A stretch of DNA of 44,606 nucleotides, taken from NCBI RefSeq assembly GCF_000485595.1, contig NW_014577061.1, positions 1,731,214 through 1,775,819 of the forward strand. The letters are read 5' to 3'. Position numbers and translations under genes: made by a program. This DNA is from Priapulus caudatus (Eukaryota). Numbering within the stretch: the first letter of the stretch is position 1; each line of letters begins with the position of its first letter. The notes under the pieces were generated by a model. The model had not been told where the DNA came from. It made no database searches and was given only the letters and a program-made list of their open reading frames with translations. Shown here in pieces: positions 16,745 through 27,398 of the stretch.

Positions 16745-16789
16745 GTGCACAATTTGATGAAGGTAACTGCATAGCAACGACAGAACACG

Positions 16790-19700
16790 ATGGACAACAG
16801 TGAAGTTCGCAATGGCCTAGAACGACCGCTCGACCCGTCCTACACGAACGGTATGAGCATGAGCAGCTTGTACGGCGTCGCCGGGTACAACAGCGGCGCC
16901 CCCTACAACGGCAGCAGCGGCGCGTACATGAACAAGGCGGTCGAGGGCCAGCCGCCTGGCCGCATGGAGCCGCCGGTCAGCAACATGAGCTACGCGGTGA
17001 TGGACTACAACCGCCACTACCTGCCGCGCACCGCCGAGCACTCCGACTTCAACTCCTTCCGCAACTACATCATGAGCCGCATCGAGCAGCCGGACTTCTC
17101 GCCGGAGCGCGGCGGCGGCAAGCGCGCCGACAGCAACGGCGACAAGCAGCTTGCCTCGCCGCCCTTCAGCTCCGCGTACGGCTACGCCGGTGCCAAGGAC
17201 TCCACCGGCAGCGGCGGCGGGTACCGAGGCGTCCCTCCGGGTCTCGCCGACCAGCTGCCCGGCTACGGCCACGGACCGAAGGCGACCGATTACGTCGGCA
17301 ATGGTCACGTCGTCGGTGGGCCGCCGCACGGCTACCTGACCGAGTACGGCGGTCTGTACGCGATGCCCCCTGGTGAGCACGGCGGTGGCGGGCGGGCGGC
17401 AGGAGGCGCGGGGAAGCCCGGCCGCTACGGCCCGCCGATAGCGTACCAGCTGGATGTGACGAAGGGGTTGCCGCCGCTGCTGTCGCCGCAGCAGCGGACG
17501 CCGCCGCCACCGCCGCAAACCGCGCGCAATCCAGCGTTGCTGGCCTGCTTTGCCAGCGGCTCCGACTTGCAGGCGAGCCTCAACTGCAGCAGTGGGGGCA
17601 ACAGCAGCAGCAGCAGCAGCACGAGCAGCGTGTCGCCGAGCATGTCGCTGCCGCCACAGCCCTCCCCCGTGCCCCCGTACCACACCCCGCAGCCGCCCTC
17701 CCCCGCCGGCACCCTTTCCGAGACGACACCACACAAGCAGCGTCCCGACGCGGAGGAGGAGCCCGGCGACGCGAAGGAGAAGGGCGCAGTCTCCGACGAG
17801 AAGGCTGCGGTGAAGGAGGACCCCGGCGACGACGAGGAGGAAGCGATGGATACGGGCGACGCTCTTCCTGACGACATCTCGGCGCACAGCCCCGTCGCGG
17901 GGGAGGCCGCCGACAACCAGTCGGACACGGAGATCGAGGGCAGCATGAAGGAAGATGATGGCGGGAAGGAGGACAACGAGGACATCGCCGACCCGAAGCC
18001 GGAGAAGCCCGACGGCGTGGAGGAGGAGACGGAGGAGGAGGAGAAGGAGGCGGCGGCGGCGACGACGACGAAGGAGGAGGGTGCCGCCGTGGAGGAGAGT
18101 CTGGACCCGGAGAAGCAGTTTGCTCTGGCCTTCGAGCAGGCGAAGGCGGCGAGCATGCGCGCGCAGGCGGAGCTGACGAAGCGCAACCTGGAGCAGGCGG
18201 CGGCCGAGTTTGACGCGCACGAGGAGTTCATGCCGAGCATGGTCGAGGAGCGGCCCGACGCCGTCTACCGCTGCACGCTCTGCAGCTACTCGGGCACATC
18301 GCGCTTCCACTTCAACTCGCACATGAACACGCACTTCGACCACAAGTGCTCGCTGTGCGAGTACACGGCGCGCACGGAGGCGCGCCTCAAGAAGCACATT
18401 CGCGAGCTGCACGGCGACGCGTCGGCGGCGGGCGATGGCGGCAGCGGCGGCGCGCAGGCGCTGCGCGTGGCGCGCGTGAGCCAGATGCCGCCGAAGCAGA
18501 AGGTGTACCGCTGCAAGCAGTGCGAGTTTACGGCGACGAACAAGAACGAGTTCTGGGATCACTCGCGGCTCCACATCAAAGTCGACAAGATGCTGTCGTG
18601 CCCCAAGTGCAACTTCGTCACCGAGTACAAGCACCACCTCGAGTACCACCTGCGCAACCACTTCGGCTCGAAGCCGTTCAAGTGCAGCAAGTGCAACTAC
18701 TCGTGCGTGAACAAGTCGATGCTGAACAGCCACATGAAGTCGCACTCGAACTTCTACCAGTACCGCTGCCAGGACTGCACGTACGCGACCAAGTACTGCC
18801 ACAGCCTGAAGCTGCACCTTCGTAAGTACGGCCACAAGCCGGCGACCGTGCTCAGCGGCGGCGACATGTTCGTGCTGCAGCATCCCGAGCTGCTGCTCGG
18901 CCGGCGTGGCGCGCGCGGACCCAAGAAGAAGATGTTCGGCCTGCCCGAGTTGCCGCCGGCGATGATGAACGGCGGCATGCGGCACCCACCGTTTGGCTTC
19001 CCGATTCCGCCGGGCTTCAACGGCCTGCCGCCGTCAATGATGGGCAGCCTGCTGATGCAGCAGCAGCACAAGCCGTCGGCGGCGGCGCTGCGGGCCGGCG
19101 CGGTGGACGCGTCGCGCGGCGCCGGCGGCGAGCCGTGCCTCAGCTGCAACCTGTGCGACTTCCGCTCGAAGTACGCCGACCAGCTGAGCCGGCACATGAT
19201 GCTGCACGCCGCCGCCGACAACCAGGACCTCTGCAAGCTCTACGGCATCTCGACGGAGACGCTGATGGCCGACGGCCGCCAGGTGTCGCCGGCCGTGCTG
19301 CGCGAGGGCCAGCTGTCGCCGGGCGAGGTGCGCCGCTGGGCGCAGGAGGCCGAGCGCAGTCAGCCGAGGAGCAAGACGCCGCCGAAGCTTTGTTCGGCGG
19401 CCGCTGTCGCCGCGGCGCTCTACAAGAACGTTGAGGGCGTCGACAAGGCGAAGGTGCTCGACCTGAGCCGCAACCACGACGTCAGTGCGATGAAGGACGC
19501 ACTCGACCAGATCGGCGCCGTCAAGATCAAGCAGGAGCCGGACGCCGGCGGCCGGGACGCCCCGCCGCCGCCGCCGCCAGAATCGAGTCTTCCGGAGCCA
19601 GTGGCGGCGCCCTCCTCTGCCGCGTCGCCGTCGCGAAGCCGCCGCAAGGGCAAGGCCTACAAGCTTGACCGCATCTGCATGAAGCTGCAGAAGCAGTTCT

Positions 19701-20278
19701 CACCTGGCGGCGGCGGCAGCGGCGGCGGCGCCGAGTCGAACGACGGCTACAGCTCGGACTCGTGCGGCGCCCCCGCGGCCGGCGTCACCTATGCACTCGA
19801 TTGCGACGCAGCGGCGGCAGCGGCCGACGACAAGGTCGATCGAGAGCCGAGCGAGCATGTGCACAGGGTCGCCGACGCTGACTGCGTCGCAAAGCCTCCG
19901 CCGCCACCGCCGCTCGGCCGCGCGAGCATCAGCGCGAGTCCGGAGTACGAGGAGCAGTGCCATCGCGGCTTTGCCGAGCAGCAGGCGCTCTACCACAGCC
20001 ACCAGCTGTTCGGCGGCGGCGCGGCAAGGCGGCCGGAGCTGGGCAAGGCGTCGATTGGCGCGCTCGTGCTGCGGCAGATGGGCGGCGCCCGGCTCGCCGA
20101 CGCGTGCGAGGCATACGAGTGCAACTATTGTGAAATCTCCTTCAAGAACTGCGTGATGTACACGATGCACATGGGCTACCACGGCTACCGCGACCCGTTC
20201 AAGTGCAACATGTGCGGCCACCAGGCCGAAGACAAGATCTCATTCTTCTTGCACATCGCCAGGGTGGCGCACATGTAG
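16790..20278 (+). CDS. hb: Hunchback (hb/hbl-1) C2H2 zinc-finger transcription factor, 1162 aa, single coding exon
   Basis: Diagnostic middle fingers [65 protein letters not shown]. Two N-terminal fingers, one extra finger ([21 protein letters not shown]), basic box [10 protein letters not shown], and two C-terminal Ikaros/Hb-type fingers ([30 protein letters not shown]...[10 protein letters not shown]). Strong GC3 bias; in-frame stop upstream of the ATG. Confidence 0.97.
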
Positions 20279-23200
20279 AGCACCGCCCCCGCGTGCCGCG
20301 CGGCGTGCCCCGGTCACGTCCACGTACCGCGTAGTGCGTGTCCCCGTACTCGATGCCGCATCCTACCTTTGACTCATGCCAATCCATCAACTACCGGACC
20401 TCTACTGTTGCAATAACTGTCCGATCGACAGGACGTGGCTGGCTTGCTCGCTGGCAGACACATTCGGTGTGCTATCATGCATAGGTCTCGTGCAAGGTAT
20501 TCAGGTTTAAAAACTTCTGAGGAAAATTCATAATCCGTAATGCGGTCTCGGTTGGAGATGGTACACGGACAGTTCTTTCCATAGACGAATTAAGAGATAG
20601 TAACCAGTATAACTACATGCCTTAGACGGAAAAATGAATGTAGTATTTAGTGTGTCCTTCCCCATGGCCTTTTGTAGCTAGCTAAATTCCATAAGTATTA
20701 TGGGTAGTAAGTGAAAATGTTACTATCATGCATGTACCAAAGATATAACACTCTGGGAAGATGGCTTTCTAGGACGTGAAGATGTCAGCATGTTCTTGCC
20801 GTAACAAGAGGCAACCCTGAAGGTGGTGCCACGATGATTCTTCTGAGGTGGCAAATGCTTGGCGTTAGTCTGGAGAAATACGAGGCGCGCACAATCTATC
20901 TATACGTGTATTCTTGAATGTTGACTGTACTTATGGTCGGTTATTTATTAATGGTAACTATTGAGGCTTATGCTGGGATGCGTTCTCAGTAGAGTTATTC
21001 CTGTATCAGTAGATACTCGTCGTTTTCCGTAATACGCTGTGGATCCTTATATATGCGTATTGTGAACGTTGAATTCAGGAAAGAGTAACATGCAATACTG
21101 GCTAAATCTAAACTCGCCAAAGAACTTCTGCCACTATTTATAGTGATAGGAGATAAATATGTTATGGTATAACGCAATGGCAGGACGTATTCTGTGAAAC
21201 AGATGCCTAGCTGGTGGTTTGCTGTGAATAGAGGGTCCCATAATCCAAACCCGTTTGGCCAGCGTTGCATGCAAGTAGTCTTCCTGTGGCCTGTGTTCCT
21301 GATGACATTTATATGTTCACTGTTCGATGTTTGTAAGGTTCGGAGGTTTTCTTTTTTTTTCTTTGTAAATAATTTATATTTATGTCGAAACTGTATAAAT
21401 ATAGTCAGGGATGCAGTGATATTGACTCGTGGTGTCCAGAAGAGATATTGCTCAAACTTTGTTATTTCAAACTTTATCTGAACTCAGGGGTGTTTGGGAA
21501 GGTTTTCTCTGGATACTACGTGCTCAAGTGGGGGCGTCTGTCGTGTGTGTGTGGTCTCGCCACCGCTTGCCTAAGGCCTGCAGCTGCATTGCGAGACGAA
21601 CTTAGAGCTGGTCAGCGCTGTGTATTTTTTCTGTTGGGAGACGTCCGTGGTTGGCGCTTCGTCCAGGGGGCGCCTGCAGAGCTAGCGTGTGCCTCGGCGA
21701 CGCCGGGCAACCTCGCTCGTTGCAATGCGGTGTCGCGCGTGATCTCATGACGGTTGGCTGAGTGTGTACACTAAGGATCAACCCTCTTTTCAATTTGACA
21801 TCTTCCAGAATTCCAAAACTTTGTTTTTGTTGTGTTTTGTATGGTCAGGAGATCGCGACCTTTTTGAGGCTGGTCGCTGTATACGTTAATGTGTGGAATG
21901 AGTGTCGTGTAGTCGGGACTGCTATTGCACTCATTCATATCATTGTTTCACAGTGAGTTTTATGGACCAGCAAAGGAACGAAATGTTATGACTTTATCAT
22001 AGGTTTTTCATTATATTTGATTACTAGTTATCAGTGAGGAGTTGAATATTATTTTACTACTGTTGTATCTGTCGTTATGGAAGGTAATGCAGGGGCGAGG
22101 GAGATGTGTCCATGACATTGTGTTTGTGCTACATATTATACTCAGTGTCATAATACTATGCCTTAGGTCAGTCATCAGGGTTCAGAGTTTCTGCTGGCTA
22201 TTTTGTAATAATAGACTCAGTGGCACCGCCCTCGTGGCCGACGGAGCAGTTTATTTTCAGAAGTTTATATTTTTTCCAGGAGGGGAGCTTCTCGGCCACG
22301 AGGTGGCGCATGTGATGAGTCTGTACTGGTGTTGTTGATGATCAAAATAGTGGTGATACGCTGTCAAATCACAGTTTGAAGTTAATTTGCTCAAGACGTG
22401 GTGTCTGTGATTGCAGCCAGTGGTATAAGGAGATACACAGTACAGACATGTCAGCACTTGGGTACGTGCATGTATAAATACACACAAACACACACATAAA
22501 AAAAATATGTAGGTATGCATGTATATATATCATAGATTTTTATATATATATATATATATATATACGTATGTATGTACTCCTGTATGTGTATATGTGTTAC
22601 ACAGTGCAACTTGCACTTGTATTATATTGGCTGCAGCGAATAAGTAGCAGGTCTCCCTCTTGCTGTCCGCTTTACTGCAGATCCCAGGTTCAGAAAAATT
22701 ACTGTCTCTGTGGTTTCACTTTTGCGGGCCACTCATCCTACCGTTTGGACTGGCACATAAACAATGTGCATATAATCTAGTTATATTGTGATGTTTCCTC
22801 ACCTGCCCTGGGAGACACTGTAACAACCTCCGAATTGTTGAAAGATCACCTAGTGGTGGACATACCTCTACCGTAGGCGCCCACGAGACCACCTTACGTC
22901 GGTGCTGGTGCCCATAACGTTGTTACGGCGTGTTGCGGTAATCTTTCTAACAGAATTGGGAATTTTCGTCGCATTTGTTCTCGGTATCACAGGTATAGTT
23001 CCGTTAAATGCAATACGTAGCATCAGTGGGCAAACTTCACTTTTTTCACGTGCACCTGTAGGCGTTGACGTACAACCTACAGCGATTTCCTCTGGTTTCT
23101 GCGGGAGAGCCGTTTGCGAGCCGACAGACGTGTTACATTCACACTGCAGCCCTTACTAAAACTATACCGAATATTACCTCAGTAAGAAACACACTGTATG

Positions 23201-23360
23201 TCTACATTGTCTATATTTCCTTTGCATATTCTATCAATACGGGTTTAAATGTTTTATGAAATACTATATGTTTATATTGTGATTGCAAAAGCCGTCAGAT
23301 GGGAGACGTGCCTCTTCTAGAGCGTAAGGAGACCTTATCTCACGAAGTGCAGATACGAGC

Positions 23361-23361
<1 letters not shown>

Positions 23362-23407
<46 letters not shown>

Positions 23408-23642
23408 CTTCTCTCTTCTCTCTTCTCTCTTCTCTCTTCTCTCTCCCCCTGTCTATCTCTCTCTCTCTTTCTTTATCGATGTGTATGCGTGTCACCCCAG
23501 ATACTCTCTATCTCTCTTTAACTCTCTGCCTTTCCCTTCCCCCCTCTCTTTCTCTCTCTCTCTGTCTCTCTCACACAATTTCTCTCGGAGTACACGGAAG
23601 GGAAGCGTGCGTACTCTATGCGTCCGTGCGGGAGGAGAGAGG

Positions 23643-23704
<62 letters not shown>
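23362..23704. repeat. (CT)n tract followed by (GA)n tract
   Basis: Direct reading. Confidence 0.95.
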
Positions 23705-23707
<3 letters not shown>

Positions 23708-24609
23708 GGTTCGCGCAGTCGGCTTGTGTCGGCTCGGTCTCCCACTGGCGATCTTCGCAGCGTGTATCATAGCTTGTCATGTTATTATCGTCATAAACAG
23801 TATTGTAAACAGTTGCGTGGCAGGGATGGAGATAAAGCTCACGTAAAGCGCGGGAACGTATAGTTGTCGTATCTAAACACTACGTACATAACGTATTAGT
23901 AGCCGTAGCTTGCATATAATCCTAGCATCGTGTATACTGAAGATAGAGAGTAGCGTCGTAGATATGTTTATAGTTTGCTACATGTGTCATGCCAACCAAC
24001 CAGCTATATGAGCCGCAATCAAAGTGATTCAAATCAAAATGATGAGGACGTCGGCAGTGATACTGTCCGATTAATTGATTGCTGATGTATCAGGATCCAT
24101 GATTAATTTATTTTCATTTTGCTTGCTAATTTGTTTAGCCTATTTATTTTACCAAATCAGGAGTTAAGAATTGTGACTGTGTTACTGTGATGAATCAGTG
24201 AAGGAGAGAGAGATAAATATAGCAGGAATTGCTGTCAGTTTCTCTGTAGTAAATTTGATTTTTGGGTGATACCATTTGACCTCTGTGTTCCTTAAAAGTA
24301 ATATTTTATTAATGGAAGTAGGAAAACGACCTGGTTGGATATATTTACTCTAATCTTTCAGAACGTTTTGGAAAGCGAGATCACATAGTACGCAAGATTT
24401 CAAAATTTTACAACGACGCGTAGAGGTAATCACTTTTTTTTTAACTTTTTAATCAGCGAACTGACGAAACGTTAACCACCGAATACATCCAGCTGGAAAG
24501 GTCGTTGGTTTGCAGTCGCGATGTCATCTCATGCCTGCCTTTAAGTAGGGATGTCACATTGTACATGTCTTCGGGTAGAGCCACATGGCTCAAATAAGAC
24601 GCATAAAAC

Positions 24610-24735
24610 CATAGAAATAATATCAGGAGTTAATAATGACAAATTAGGACAGTCATTATTAACTCCTGATAATATAGATAGATCTATCTATATATAGAAA
24701 TATAGATATATATATAGATCTATATTATTTCTATG
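24610..24735. mobile_element. P-element-like MITE (CATAG...CTATG, 8-bp TSD) containing a nested 45-bp element
   Basis: TSD cataaaac at 24602-24609 and 24736-24743. TIR catagaaataatat(agat)/atctatattatttctatg. Inner element 24624-24668 has a perfect 17-bp TIR and a 7-bp TSD ataatat. Confidence 0.82.
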
Positions 24736-25196
24736 CATAAAACGAACCTATTCTATACGCCACACAGAGGGAGTGACGCCGCGCTGTTTATATTGAGAAC
24801 GCGTTAGTTCACATGACTGGAAATCATTTTGTCTTTAATAATAATGCATCCTGATGAGTAATCTTGCCTGGAGACTTCATGGACATCGTCATCGCGGCCT
24901 ATGTTTCCCAACATCGTGCCACGTGATCATCTAGTCATGCAAGACTGCAGTATTAAAATCTAAAATTACCAAAGAGGTAGGGAAAATTCGATATACGAAA
25001 TTTGTCGTTATACAGTATAGTTTAGCTGTCTTTAGGTAAATTGTTTGTGCCTGTTCCTCATCAGCTGTTTGTTATAGTGCAAGTCTTGCAAAGGGTCGTT
25101 GTGTACTAGTACAGTAGTTCCTGGCTTGTTCTGTACATCCAGCATTGCTCCATGCTCTACAGTACGTTGCCACTGTACAGCCGTGTTGTGATGTGG

Positions 25197-25202
25197 AATA
25201 AA
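25197..25202 (+). terminator. Candidate polyadenylation signal for hunchback
   Basis: AATAAA followed ~20-50 nt later by GT/T-rich sequence (tgtcgtcttcggtgtaatctgtttgtg). Confidence 0.5.
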
Positions 25203-26119
25203 ATAGCATTCAATCGATATCTGTCGTCTTCGGTGTAATCTGTTTGTGATGAAATGTCTCTGATTGGATTATGGAGTTCAATGTCTTCATCTCAGCTGCA
25301 ATCATTGATATTATACACACTGGCTATAGCAATGAGAATTTTTGGGAAATTCCGGGGAATTTCGCTTTTAACCGCTAGATACCTATTTTTAACCTATGTG
25401 ATGTGTAATTTACGATAATAATTACATTTTTTTTCACTAGAAAGTCGTATACCAGTATAATATTATTTCGCTATGAAGGTGTGATGGGGTAAATTTTCAA
25501 TATGACCGTTGACGTGTTGGGTGCATAATTTTGTATATGATACCATTCTGCCGGGCTTGCGTTTGTACGACGTAGACAACAGAATATGAGTACGATTTCT
25601 CAGCAGGTGTAGGTAGGGCCTACTCTGAGGGTTTGACCTCAGCTCTCTAATGCGATCAAAACATAATACGTATAACAATAACGTAAAATACCAGTGAGGC
25701 ATCCGCGTCAGTTCGTATAGCTTTTAATTAAAATATGTGATATTTCGCAAGAAGAACGAAATGATGACAATAATATTTGAAGCGAAATATAGTGGCAACT
25801 AACTACGTGACCAATCACGCATGTTCTGGTCTGGAATTTAGTAATAGTAAACATACACATGGGTATAATGATTTATGTTCTGAGTAGGTGGCGAACGGAC
25901 GAGTCTCCATATACGACCTAGCTAACCGTTTCTATTCGTGCTTAATTTGAATTTTAATATGCAGTTTGTGTGTATAGGTACTTCAATAGAGGCAGGTGGA
26001 GTGCATGGTACATATCTCTATAGAGATAAAGCCAAAAATTACTGAACATAAAGTGAAACAATAATAAATACAAATATTGTAACAATCATATTATATATAT
26101 ATATTTATTAATATATATA

Positions 26120-26158
<39 letters not shown>

Positions 26159-26600
26159 CGTACAACAACCGTTTTTACCATAATCGGGGTTGTACATATA
26201 TGAAAACTCGCCCGAGCTTGCACATAGCCAGGTCGCCCAGTAATATGAATAATACCTGTTGCTTTTGACAAAGAATACTGCTAAATTTATGCAAAAACGT
26301 AAACGTACTTCGTGACTAAAAGCATGATGGAAAAGCATTGCCGGAAAATCTCAGTCTTGTAAGATCCTAATTTAGAAACTATAAATAATTAGAAAATAAA
26401 GTCTAGTACATTCCGGTGCAATCCAGAATAACATGTGCAATTCAGAACTCAACCAAACGCAATTGCCAAACAACAAGATAAACATGGAAGAATTCCCCGA
26501 CCCCTCCCCCCGCCTACACACACACATTGTCTGTAAAATGACGTATGTTATGGAGATAACGTGTGTTAATGATCATTAATTTGTCCTAATATAATACAAT

Positions 26601-26655
26601 CAAGAGCTAATAATACATTAGTATATTAATATATATAAGTATATTATAGCTCTTG
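26601..26655. mobile_element. Small palindromic MITE-like relic
   Basis: caagagctaataata ... tattatagctcttg inverted ends around an AT core; flanks atacaat/ttactat match only 5/7. Confidence 0.45.
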
Positions 26656-27398
26656 TTACTATATCAGTCCCTATATAATCTAATACAAGTATGTGCGTGC
26701 GCGCGCGTGGGTGCTTTCCGTATCGGTCCTAAACGGTTCGTAATCAATCCGTTTGATTGGCGGACCATGCAGCATTCTGTACTCTGTCTCGCATGCTCAC
26801 ATTACCGTGCCTAGATATCGCTGGTTCCACAGCAAGAGCACGCCGATTAACTCGAAACGTAAATTGTATATCAAGCCATATTCCACCGCGACTAGTCACT
26901 TTATCGGCGTATAGAAATAATCTGTCACTTGACAAAAATGACTTGACACTGAAAAAAGCAGATGTCTAACCGCGACAGGAATAGTTATGGTTTCCTCTTC
27001 CGAGTTAACCATGGCGGAGAAAGAATAAGTATAGAAAAAGCAAACCCTTTATCCTCGCAGTCATATCATCGCAACCTAGCTGTACTGGTGTTATCATTTC
27101 CACCACAGAAAGAGAGGCGAACACCCTTAAAAGAATCAATTATATATATATATATATATATATATTTATTTATTTATTTATATATATATTCTGCATGGCA
27201 TGGGCGGTGGGTGGACTGCTTCCTCAGCACGTTGGACCTTAATTTCTATACGGACGGAAAGTATTTGCTGAGCCATAGACATAATGTATTTAGTATTCTC
27301 TTTACACATTTCTGTGGCATGCGCTATATAGGGGGCAGCACTCTCCAGTAACGGCTGTATACCGAGACGTGAATTTCAACATTTATTTTGCTCTATAT

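What the first reader, a model, noticed from the sequence alone, without database searches (positions are those of the whole stretch)
23160..23181. Near full-length let-7 complementary site downstream of hunchback
Seen: 23160-23181 reads AACTATACCGAATATTACCTCA. The perfect complement of let-7 (UGAGGUAGUAGGUUGUAUAGUU) is AACTATACAACCTACTACCTCA, so 17/22 positions are identical with no gaps. let-7 nt 1-7 pair Watson-Crick, nt 8 is G:U, nt 9-10 pair, nt 11-14 form a central loop, and nt 15-22 pair perfectly. Established: this seed + central bulge + 3' pairing design is that of C. elegans heterochronic let-7 complementary sites, and hbl-1 (the nematode hunchback) is a let-7-family target. Inference: let-7 control of hunchback exists in this non-nematode lineage and may be ancestral rather than a nematode innovation.
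Basis: partly seen in the sequence, partly recalled or inferred. Interest (0 to 1): 0.88.

Follow-up and report, generated by a model that had tools for sequence, protein, structure and literature searches.

The report
let-7 docking site behind non-nematode hunchback
A 22-base stretch 2.9 kb after the hunchback gene of an animal that is likely neither a nematode nor an arthropod matches the microRNA let-7 far better than chance and lies near matches for its cluster partners miR-100 and miR-125, so it is likely a docking site in a long messenger tail through which these timing RNAs would damp hunchback as let-7 does in worms, though no RNA evidence yet shows that the message reaches that far.

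Summary
The 22-mer is real: 17/22 Watson-Crick pairs plus wobbles at g8 and g13, 2,881 nt after the stop of an intronless nine-finger hunchback (16790-20278). Trees place the gene in Ecdysozoa, apart from arthropods and not nested in chromadorean nematodes. A seed plus an 8-nt 3' block is expected 0.0006 times in 5 kb. Its duplex energy (-21.8) is not exceptional. The design is not that of lin-41 sites (g11, g12, g14 unpaired) but resembles the dot-1.1 site, and there is one site, not hbl-1's ten. New here: a miR-100 seed match lies 56 nt downstream and two miR-125 seed matches lie upstream. Among 32 unrelated hunchback 3' flanks, one pancrustacean gene has the same let-7 pattern (0.007 expected). 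A four-member pancrustacean clade keeps extended miR-100 sites. The three seeds together are enriched on the sense strand (p 0.001; 0.008-0.037 with that clade collapsed). Looser let-7 tests showed no enrichment. Untested: whether the mRNA reaches the site, conservation in close relatives, function, ancestry. About 65% a selected let-7 site; about 30% an ancestral link. The scan noted similar sites behind Krüppel and chinmo on other DNA, none for hunchback.

The parts
16745..16789 (+). Likely start of the coding exon: pyrimidine tract and AG splice acceptor about 45 nt before the ATG
   Evidence: sequence printed; splice use inferred
16790..20278 (+). hunchback coding sequence, 1162 aa, no intron, nine C2H2 fingers (2+4+1+2)
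   Evidence: finger positions; named hunchback relatives; 55% identity over the full length to unnamed P0003, same start
20279..23350 (+). Predicted long 3' UTR; its end is unknown. No AATAAA or ATTAAA until 24952 and 25197
   Evidence: 0 observed, 1.66 expected, P 0.20: weak; inferred, no RNA data
21364..21371 (+). Pumilio-type element in a U-rich stretch (second copy at 22520); motif definition recalled
   Evidence: not tested against chance
21405..21411 (+). miR-125/lin-4 seed match, 7mer-A1
   Evidence: seed nt 2-7 from PMC11977657
21483..21489 (+). miR-125/lin-4 seed match, 7mer-m8 (the eighth miRNA base is recalled, not from a call)
23160..23181 (+). let-7 complementary site: 7mer-A1 seed, G:U at g8, g9-10 paired, g11-14 mostly open, g15-22 paired
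   Evidence: seed unpaired more often than 80% and the 3' block more often than 97% of 8-nt stretches in the flank
23238..23245 (+). miR-100 seed match (nt 1-8 complementary, 7mer-m8), seed only, in an 80% AU context; the only copy of this 7-mer on the + strand of 41 kb of non-coding window
   Evidence: miR-100 sequence from PMC11977657

Best explanation
The 22-mer is likely a selected let-7 target site in a predicted 3' UTR of at least 3 kb of this ecdysozoan hunchback mRNA, where let-7-loaded Argonaute would bind through the g2-7 seed, make up for the G:U at g8 with the g15-22 block, and repress translation or destabilise the message without slicing, likely helped by the miR-100 seed match 56 nt downstream and two miR-125 seed matches upstream. 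The likely outcome is that Hunchback falls when the miR-100/let-7/miR-125 cluster comes on later in development. Shown: the sequence, its position and strand, its excess over chance, the neighbouring seed matches, and a like site behind one other non-nematode hunchback. Inferred: inclusion in the mRNA, binding, repression, joint action and timing. Slicing is judged unlikely because g11-12 are mismatched (established knowledge, recalled).
For: Strict pattern expected 0.0006 in 5 kb, 4 of 5000 shuffled miRNAs. let-7 on hunchback is a pairing named in advance by C. elegans genetics. The same criterion, fixed on this site before the relatives were scanned, hit 1 of 32 unrelated hunchback flanks on the sense strand and 0 antisense (L048:3263-3284, about 330 nt after the stop and before the first AATAAA; 0.007 expected, 82 of 5000 shuffled miRNAs). 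All three cluster seeds occur in 20279-23350 (P 0.016; let-7 and miR-100 7-mers within 100 nt P 0.004). The three seeds, flagged in the window first (note), are jointly enriched in 22 non-nematode flanks (p 0.001; antisense 0.20-0.56; 0.008-0.037 with one clade collapsed). A g2-7 match, G:U at g8 and distal pairing works in vivo at dot-1.1 (PMC5909448). The site is comparatively accessible. No canonical poly(A) hexamer precedes it.
Against: No RNA evidence that the transcript runs 2.9 kb past the stop; variant poly(A) hexamers occur earlier (for example TATAAA at 21394 and 22473), and the lack of canonical ones has P 0.20. No DNA of a close relative could be compared. Duplex energy is bettered at four other places in the window. 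g11, g12 and g14 are unpaired, the region that matters most for let-7 in C. elegans, and even a perfect seed failed there when g11-13 were all mismatched (PMC9161110). One site only. A looser two-block score found 2-4 of 32 flanks, no more than shuffled miRNAs (p 0.11-0.89). The window's miR-100 match has no real 3' pairing (-15.1). The first stage looks at many windows and many miRNAs, so one such match can arise by selection (70 of 1000 shuffles reach 17/22 in a whole window). The triad test was not compared with other conserved miRNA families.
Confidence: 0.65

Rival explanations
1. Chance match, or a match outside the mRNA: the transcript is cleaved at a variant signal 1-2.5 kb after the stop, and the 22-mer is the lucky tail of a search over many genes and miRNAs.
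For: 2,881 nt from the stop; variant hexamers upstream; energy not exceptional; 7% of shuffled let-7 sequences reach 17/22 in a whole window; 31 of 32 other flanks lack the strict pattern, though only 11 of the 32 reach 2.9 kb; simple seed matches are common (P 0.19-0.32 each in 3 kb).
Against: Sense strand, downstream, right gene for the miRNA; 0.0006-0.006 expected locally; independent like site in L048; triad enrichment on the sense strand only.
Confidence: 0.27
2. The site is bound by a let-7 paralog or another lineage-specific miRNA whose central bases fit g11-14 better, or it works as a decoy in a separate non-coding transcript downstream of hunchback.
For: The mismatches fall where let-7a pairing matters most; G:U at g8 plus distal pairing selects one family member at dot-1.1; this species' own miRNA set was not examined.
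Against: g15-22 match canonical let-7 without a gap; let-7a is kept full-length in most bilaterians; nothing points to a separate transcript.
Confidence: 0.06
3. The 22-mer is itself a let-7-like miRNA gene on the minus strand.
For: Its reverse complement has let-7's ends; a 6-bp inverted repeat flanks it.
Against: No precursor hairpin with the 22-mer on one arm (z -0.65 for both minus-strand frames); no Rfam let-7 match at the gathering score in the window or at E up to 10 in 20279-25300.
Confidence: 0.02

Closest known systems
let-7-family and lin-4 sites in the C. elegans hbl-1 3' UTR (10.1101/698977, passages; PMC9161110, passages)
   Same: Orthologous gene, same miRNA family, miR-125/lin-4 seed matches alongside, sense strand after the stop.
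   Different: hbl-1 has ten let-7 sites and one lin-4 site, shown by deletion; here one extended let-7 site 2.9 kb out, two miR-125 7-mers, a miR-100 7-mer, and no functional test. In C. elegans the miR-100-family member mir-52 promotes hbl-1 and no direct target was known (PMC3353893, passages).
dot-1.1 miR-48 site of C. elegans (PMC5909448, passages)
   Same: Watson-Crick at nt 2-7, G:U at nt 8, extensive seed-distal pairing: the closest site design.
   Different: Selects miR-48 rather than let-7; which distal bases pair there was not seen (it is in a figure); tested as two copies.
lin-41/TRIM71 LCS1 and LCS2 (PMC5909448; PMC9161110)
   Same: Seed block, central gap and 3' block against let-7 itself.
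   Different: [quoted passage not shown]
Drosophila let-7-Complex (miR-100, let-7, miR-125 polycistron; PMC3545287, passages)
   Same: The three seeds found in this flank are those of the cluster.
   Different: hunchback is not named as a target in the passages seen; whether this animal keeps the cluster was not tested.

Membership tests
hunchback/hbl-1 orthologue | Four middle and two C-terminal C2H2 fingers, plus two N-terminal and one extra finger in the ancestral form (layout recalled) | tested here: met
   nine fingers at residues 495, 520, 575, 604, 632, 660, 786, 1111, 1139; 421 relatives at E 1e-30 or better, many named hunchback
non-nematode source | Protein not nested among nematode sequences | tested here: inconclusive
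   free trees place it outside nematodes; AU rejects nesting with chromadoreans (p 0.009) and with annelids (4e-11) but not sister to all five nematodes (p 0.18); no named close relative
canonical let-7 seed site | Watson-Crick match to nt 2-7 with A opposite nt 1 or a match at nt 8 | tested here: met
   7mer-A1, G:U at g8
canonical let-7 seed site | Lies within the mature mRNA's 3' UTR | not tested
   no RNA data obtained; poly(A) hexamer count inconclusive (P 0.20)
canonical let-7 seed site | Conserved at the orthologous position in relatives | tested here: inconclusive
   no close relative's DNA found; like site in 1 of 32 distant, unalignable flanks
canonical let-7 seed site | let-7-dependent repression | not testable with these tools
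   needs a reporter, CLIP or site mutation
lin-41-type 3'-compensatory let-7 site | Continuous pairing at g11-g15 | tested here: not met
   g11, g12, g14 mismatched, g13 wobble; requirement from PMC9161110
lin-41-type 3'-compensatory let-7 site | Central bulge or wobble in the seed | tested here: not met
   g2-7 intact, wobble at g8 only
hbl-1-type multi-site array | Many let-7 sites plus a lin-4 site | tested here: not met
   one 7-mer site and one 6-mer for let-7 in 5 kb, two weak seed-poor candidates near 22780-22801 and 23066; miR-125 7-mers present
dot-1.1-type site | g2-7 Watson-Crick, G:U at g8, extensive seed-distal pairing | tested here: met
   against the description in PMC5909448
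let-7 precursor (Rfam RF00027) | Hairpin with the mature sequence on one arm; model match | tested here: not met

The most novel reading that the evidence does not exclude
Hunchback has been a joint target of the whole miR-100/let-7/miR-125 cluster since at least the ecdysozoan ancestor. The nematode let-7/lin-4 to hbl-1 switch is an inherited and amplified piece of that control, some pancrustaceans kept mainly the miR-100 arm, and sites like this one, which pair g9-10 and g15-22, are part of what conserves let-7's otherwise unexplained distal bases.
Probability: 0.3. Interest if true: 0.8.

Novelty: new member of a known kind. Interest (0 to 1): 0.5.

Why it matters
let-7 control of hbl-1 is a core step of the C. 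elegans developmental clock, while fly hunchback is known for Pumilio/Nanos control. Whether the miRNA link predates nematodes is open in the papers I could search. A real site in a third ecdysozoan lineage, a like site in a pancrustacean and conserved extended miR-100 sites in another pancrustacean clade make the question testable by alignment and reporter, and offer a candidate conserved target for miR-100. The site also pairs the let-7 bases (g9-10, g17-22) whose conservation PMC9161110 could not explain. The mechanism itself is ordinary miRNA targeting, and a single predicted site cannot carry the claim of ancestry.

Tried and rejected
Minus-strand let-7-like gene: no hairpin, no Rfam match (the 29 weak matches are all below the gathering scores and lie mostly on simple repeats). 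Repeat origin: no direct-repeat family or long inverted repeat listed for 20279-27000 covers the site (20 of 21 families and 25 of 204 pairs shown). Duplex energy as proof: rejected, four better places in the window. Loose two-block let-7 enrichment in 32 flanks: none at seven settings (p 0.11-0.89). The let-7-like match in L023 (4069-4090, mismatch at g7) is not shared by its three relatives in the alignment (a poor alignment), so it was not counted. Relatives' DNA in prokaryote and viral collections: 0 of 12 and 0 of 37 candidates confirmed. A named close relative among shorter proteins: none in the 120 of 159 listed. A first tree did not finish and was rebuilt with fewer rows. Rows dropped: of 76 loci, 34 lacked the C-terminal fingers and 4 gave false ends, leaving 38, 32 after removing near-identical ones, 25 at one per lineage, 22 without the 3 nematode-like ones. 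The strict test misses lin-41-type sites: it did not score the two in the nematode control L046, which the 3'-anchor search found. A Nanos-response-element box pair was not found after the stop (motif recalled). Literature searches for let-7 or miR-100 sites on hunchback outside nematodes listed no such paper (listings and abstract starts only, open-access library).

Full report
Observation. The sequence is as described: 23160-23181 on the + strand reads AACTATACCGAATATTACCTCA. Against let-7 as quoted in the finding, g1-7, g9-10 and g15-22 are Watson-Crick, g8 is G:U, g13 can form U:G, and g11, g12 and g14 are mismatched. [quoted passage not shown]

The gene. One open frame, 16790-20278, encodes 1162 residues with nine C2H2 fingers; a likely splice acceptor lies about 45 nt before the ATG. 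A search with the finger region gave 421 relatives, many named hunchback. The closest, P0003, is unnamed, 55% identical over the full length, with the same start. Quick trees put the pair in Ecdysozoa on a long branch outside arthropods and nematodes (34 rows; 20 rows, where it joins the onychophoran at 93, unstarred). AU tests reject nesting with chromadorean nematodes (p 0.009) and with annelids (4e-11) but not a sister position to all five nematodes (p 0.18). No named close relative came up in either search. A priapulid or other scalidophoran is my inference from that gap and comes from no call.

Chance. The site is the best ungapped let-7 match in the window (17 of 22, next 14), and its two-block pattern was absent from 100 shuffles. 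A 7-mer seed site with 8 or more contiguous pairs to nt 11-22 is expected about 0.0006 times in 5 kb; 4 of 5000 shuffled miRNAs hit the real 5 kb. By energy the figure is 0.004-0.006, and 70 of 1000 shuffled miRNAs reach 17/22 somewhere in the whole window. Four other places have a lower duplex energy than -21.8. So the match is strong for a pair named in advance (let-7 on hunchback), and only modest if every miRNA and every part of the window is allowed.

Is it in the mRNA? Not tested by RNA. It lies 2,881 nt after the stop. No AATAAA or ATTAAA occurs before 24952, against 1.66 expected up to 23250 (P 0.20); variant hexamers occur earlier. The seed and the 3' block are predicted to be more often unpaired than 80% and 97% of 8-nt stretches in the flank. 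It is not a minus-strand precursor and lies in none of the repeats listed.

Design. PMC9161110 shows that g11-16 are the critical 3' bases, that lin-41 sites need g11-15, that g17-22 are dispensable but can compensate, and that a perfect seed with g11-13 all mismatched failed while g11-12 mismatched alone did not. This site sits at that boundary. Its closest tested design is the dot-1.1 site, with g2-7 paired, G:U at g8 and distal pairing (PMC5909448, passages). C. elegans hbl-1 has ten let-7 sites and one lin-4 site (10.1101/698977, passages); this flank has one 7-mer and one 6-mer in 5 kb.

Neighbouring sites. A miR-100 seed match lies at 23238-23245, 56 nt after the let-7 site (sequence from PMC11977657, passages). 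It is the only copy on the + strand of 41 kb of non-coding window, in an 80% AU context, but has no real 3' pairing (-15.1). miR-125 seed matches lie at 21405 and 21483, with a 6-mer at 22175 (the eighth base of miR-125 is recalled). Each alone is common (P 0.19-0.32 in 3 kb); all three together P 0.016; let-7 and miR-100 within 100 nt P 0.004. These local figures were computed after the matches were seen. The three miRNAs form one polycistron in flies (PMC3545287, passages).

Other hunchback genes. A metagenome scan gave 76 loci; 38 had a usable stop, 32 were non-redundant, and only 11 of these reach 2.9 kb. None is a close relative. The strict let-7 pattern hit 1 of 32 on the sense strand and 0 antisense: L048:3263-3284, TACTATACACCGATATACCTCA, in the same register as the window's site, about 330 nt after the stop and before the first AATAAA; 0.007 were expected, and 82 of 5000 shuffled miRNAs did as well. 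L048 is pancrustacean by tree, and its sister row L011 has a 7mer-A1 at +132. L005 has g11-22 fully paired (two wobbles) with a broken seed, and the nematode control L046 has two lin-41-type sites and a lin-4-type 8mer. Against this, a looser two-block score showed no enrichment at any of seven settings, and plain let-7 7-mer sites were in 5 of 22 non-nematode flanks over 3 kb (2.25 expected) but also in 4 of 22 antisense.

An unbiased ranking of all 16,384 7-mers over the first 1.5 kb of 25 flanks put the miR-100 match third (5 of 25, 0.63 expected), miR-125 18th and the let-7 7mer-A1 303rd (13th, 14th and 62nd at 3 kb); on the antisense strand the first two were absent. No single word survives correction for 16,384 tests; the value of the result is that these three were named beforehand (note). 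The triad beats random triplets at p 0.001 in 22 non-nematode flanks and 0.008-0.037 when the clade L012/L017/L023/L043 is collapsed to one; antisense p 0.20-0.56. That clade carries the clearest signal: 8 miR-100 7-mer matches in 4 of 4 flanks, three of them (in L017, L023 and L043) at -23.9 to -27.6 with pairing to the miRNA's 3' half, in UTRs that otherwise barely align. Other conserved miRNA families were not used as controls, so the enrichment may reflect general miRNA targeting of a developmental regulator.

Literature. Nine searches listed no paper on let-7 or miR-100 sites in hunchback outside nematodes (listings and abstract starts). In Pristionchus the hbl-1 orthologue is a predicted let-7 target (10.1101/2024.07.19.604269, passages; its target tables S6-S7, not seen, could show whether it is also a miR-100 candidate). 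The sites are conserved in C. sulstoni (PMC8063082, passages). C. elegans mir-52, of the miR-100 family, acts upstream of hbl-1 in the opposite sense with no direct target known (PMC3353893, passages). I recall that Lin et al. 2003 already proposed miRNA sites in fly hunchback; I saw nothing of that paper or of Abrahante et al. 2003, so the idea of conserved miRNA control of hunchback may be old even if these sites are new. PMC1180435, PMC11701709 and PMC1309705 were seen as passages; the last gave Pumilio control of fly hunchback and the miR-2 seed words. Earlier scan notes report miR-100 and let-7 sites behind Krüppel and a let-7 site 3.2 kb behind chinmo in other genomes; I did not check them and do not count them as support. 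Look-ups by place and by protein found nothing.

Verdict. The most likely reading (0.65) is a selected let-7 site in a long hunchback 3' UTR, acting by ordinary repression, probably with miR-100 and miR-125. Chance or a position outside the mRNA stands at 0.27. An ancestral link is possible (0.3) but not shown.

Noticed in passing
   Followed up: partly
L048:3263-3284 and L011, about 132 nt after the stop: let-7 site in the same register as the window's behind a pancrustacean hunchback; its sister row has a 7mer-A1 that shares the ten bases ending at the seed.
   Followed up: partly
L005:3367-3388: lin-41-like let-7 site (g11-22 paired with two wobbles, broken seed) 124 nt after a pancrustacean hunchback stop, -19.4 kcal/mol; not seen in relatives L007 and L008.
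   Followed up: partly
L012, L017, L023, L024, L043 3' flanks: A shared block beginning AAGTTCC, often followed by a U-rich run, in 5 of 25 flanks; no miRNA or protein assigned; absent from the window's flank.
   Followed up: no
window 21058, 22784, 23275: TATTGTG, the top-ranked 7-mer across hunchback flanks (12 of 25, 3.6 expected), occurs three times in the window's flank, once 30 nt after the miR-100 match; two copies overlap a miR-2-family 6-mer, and a miR-2 7-mer lies at 22405-22411 (seed words from PMC1309705).
   Followed up: no
window 21364 and 22520: Pumilio-type elements in the predicted UTR; Pumilio-family control is known for fly hunchback and worm hbl-1. No paired Nanos-response boxes found.
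   Followed up: partly
window 23152-23186: A 6-bp inverted repeat closes on both sides of the let-7 site and could loop it out; folding is no better than shuffles.
   Followed up: partly
window 23363-23704: Long CT and GA microsatellite arms that form a large inverted repeat 180 nt after the site; if transcribed it would be double-stranded.
   Followed up: no
window 16745-16770: An ATG followed two codons later by a stop just upstream of the hunchback start: a possible minimal upstream ORF.
   Followed up: no
window 3001-43000: G over C and T over A skew on the + strand through most of the window, also far downstream of hunchback; no other gene was recognised among frames of 100 aa or more (by eye).
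   Followed up: no
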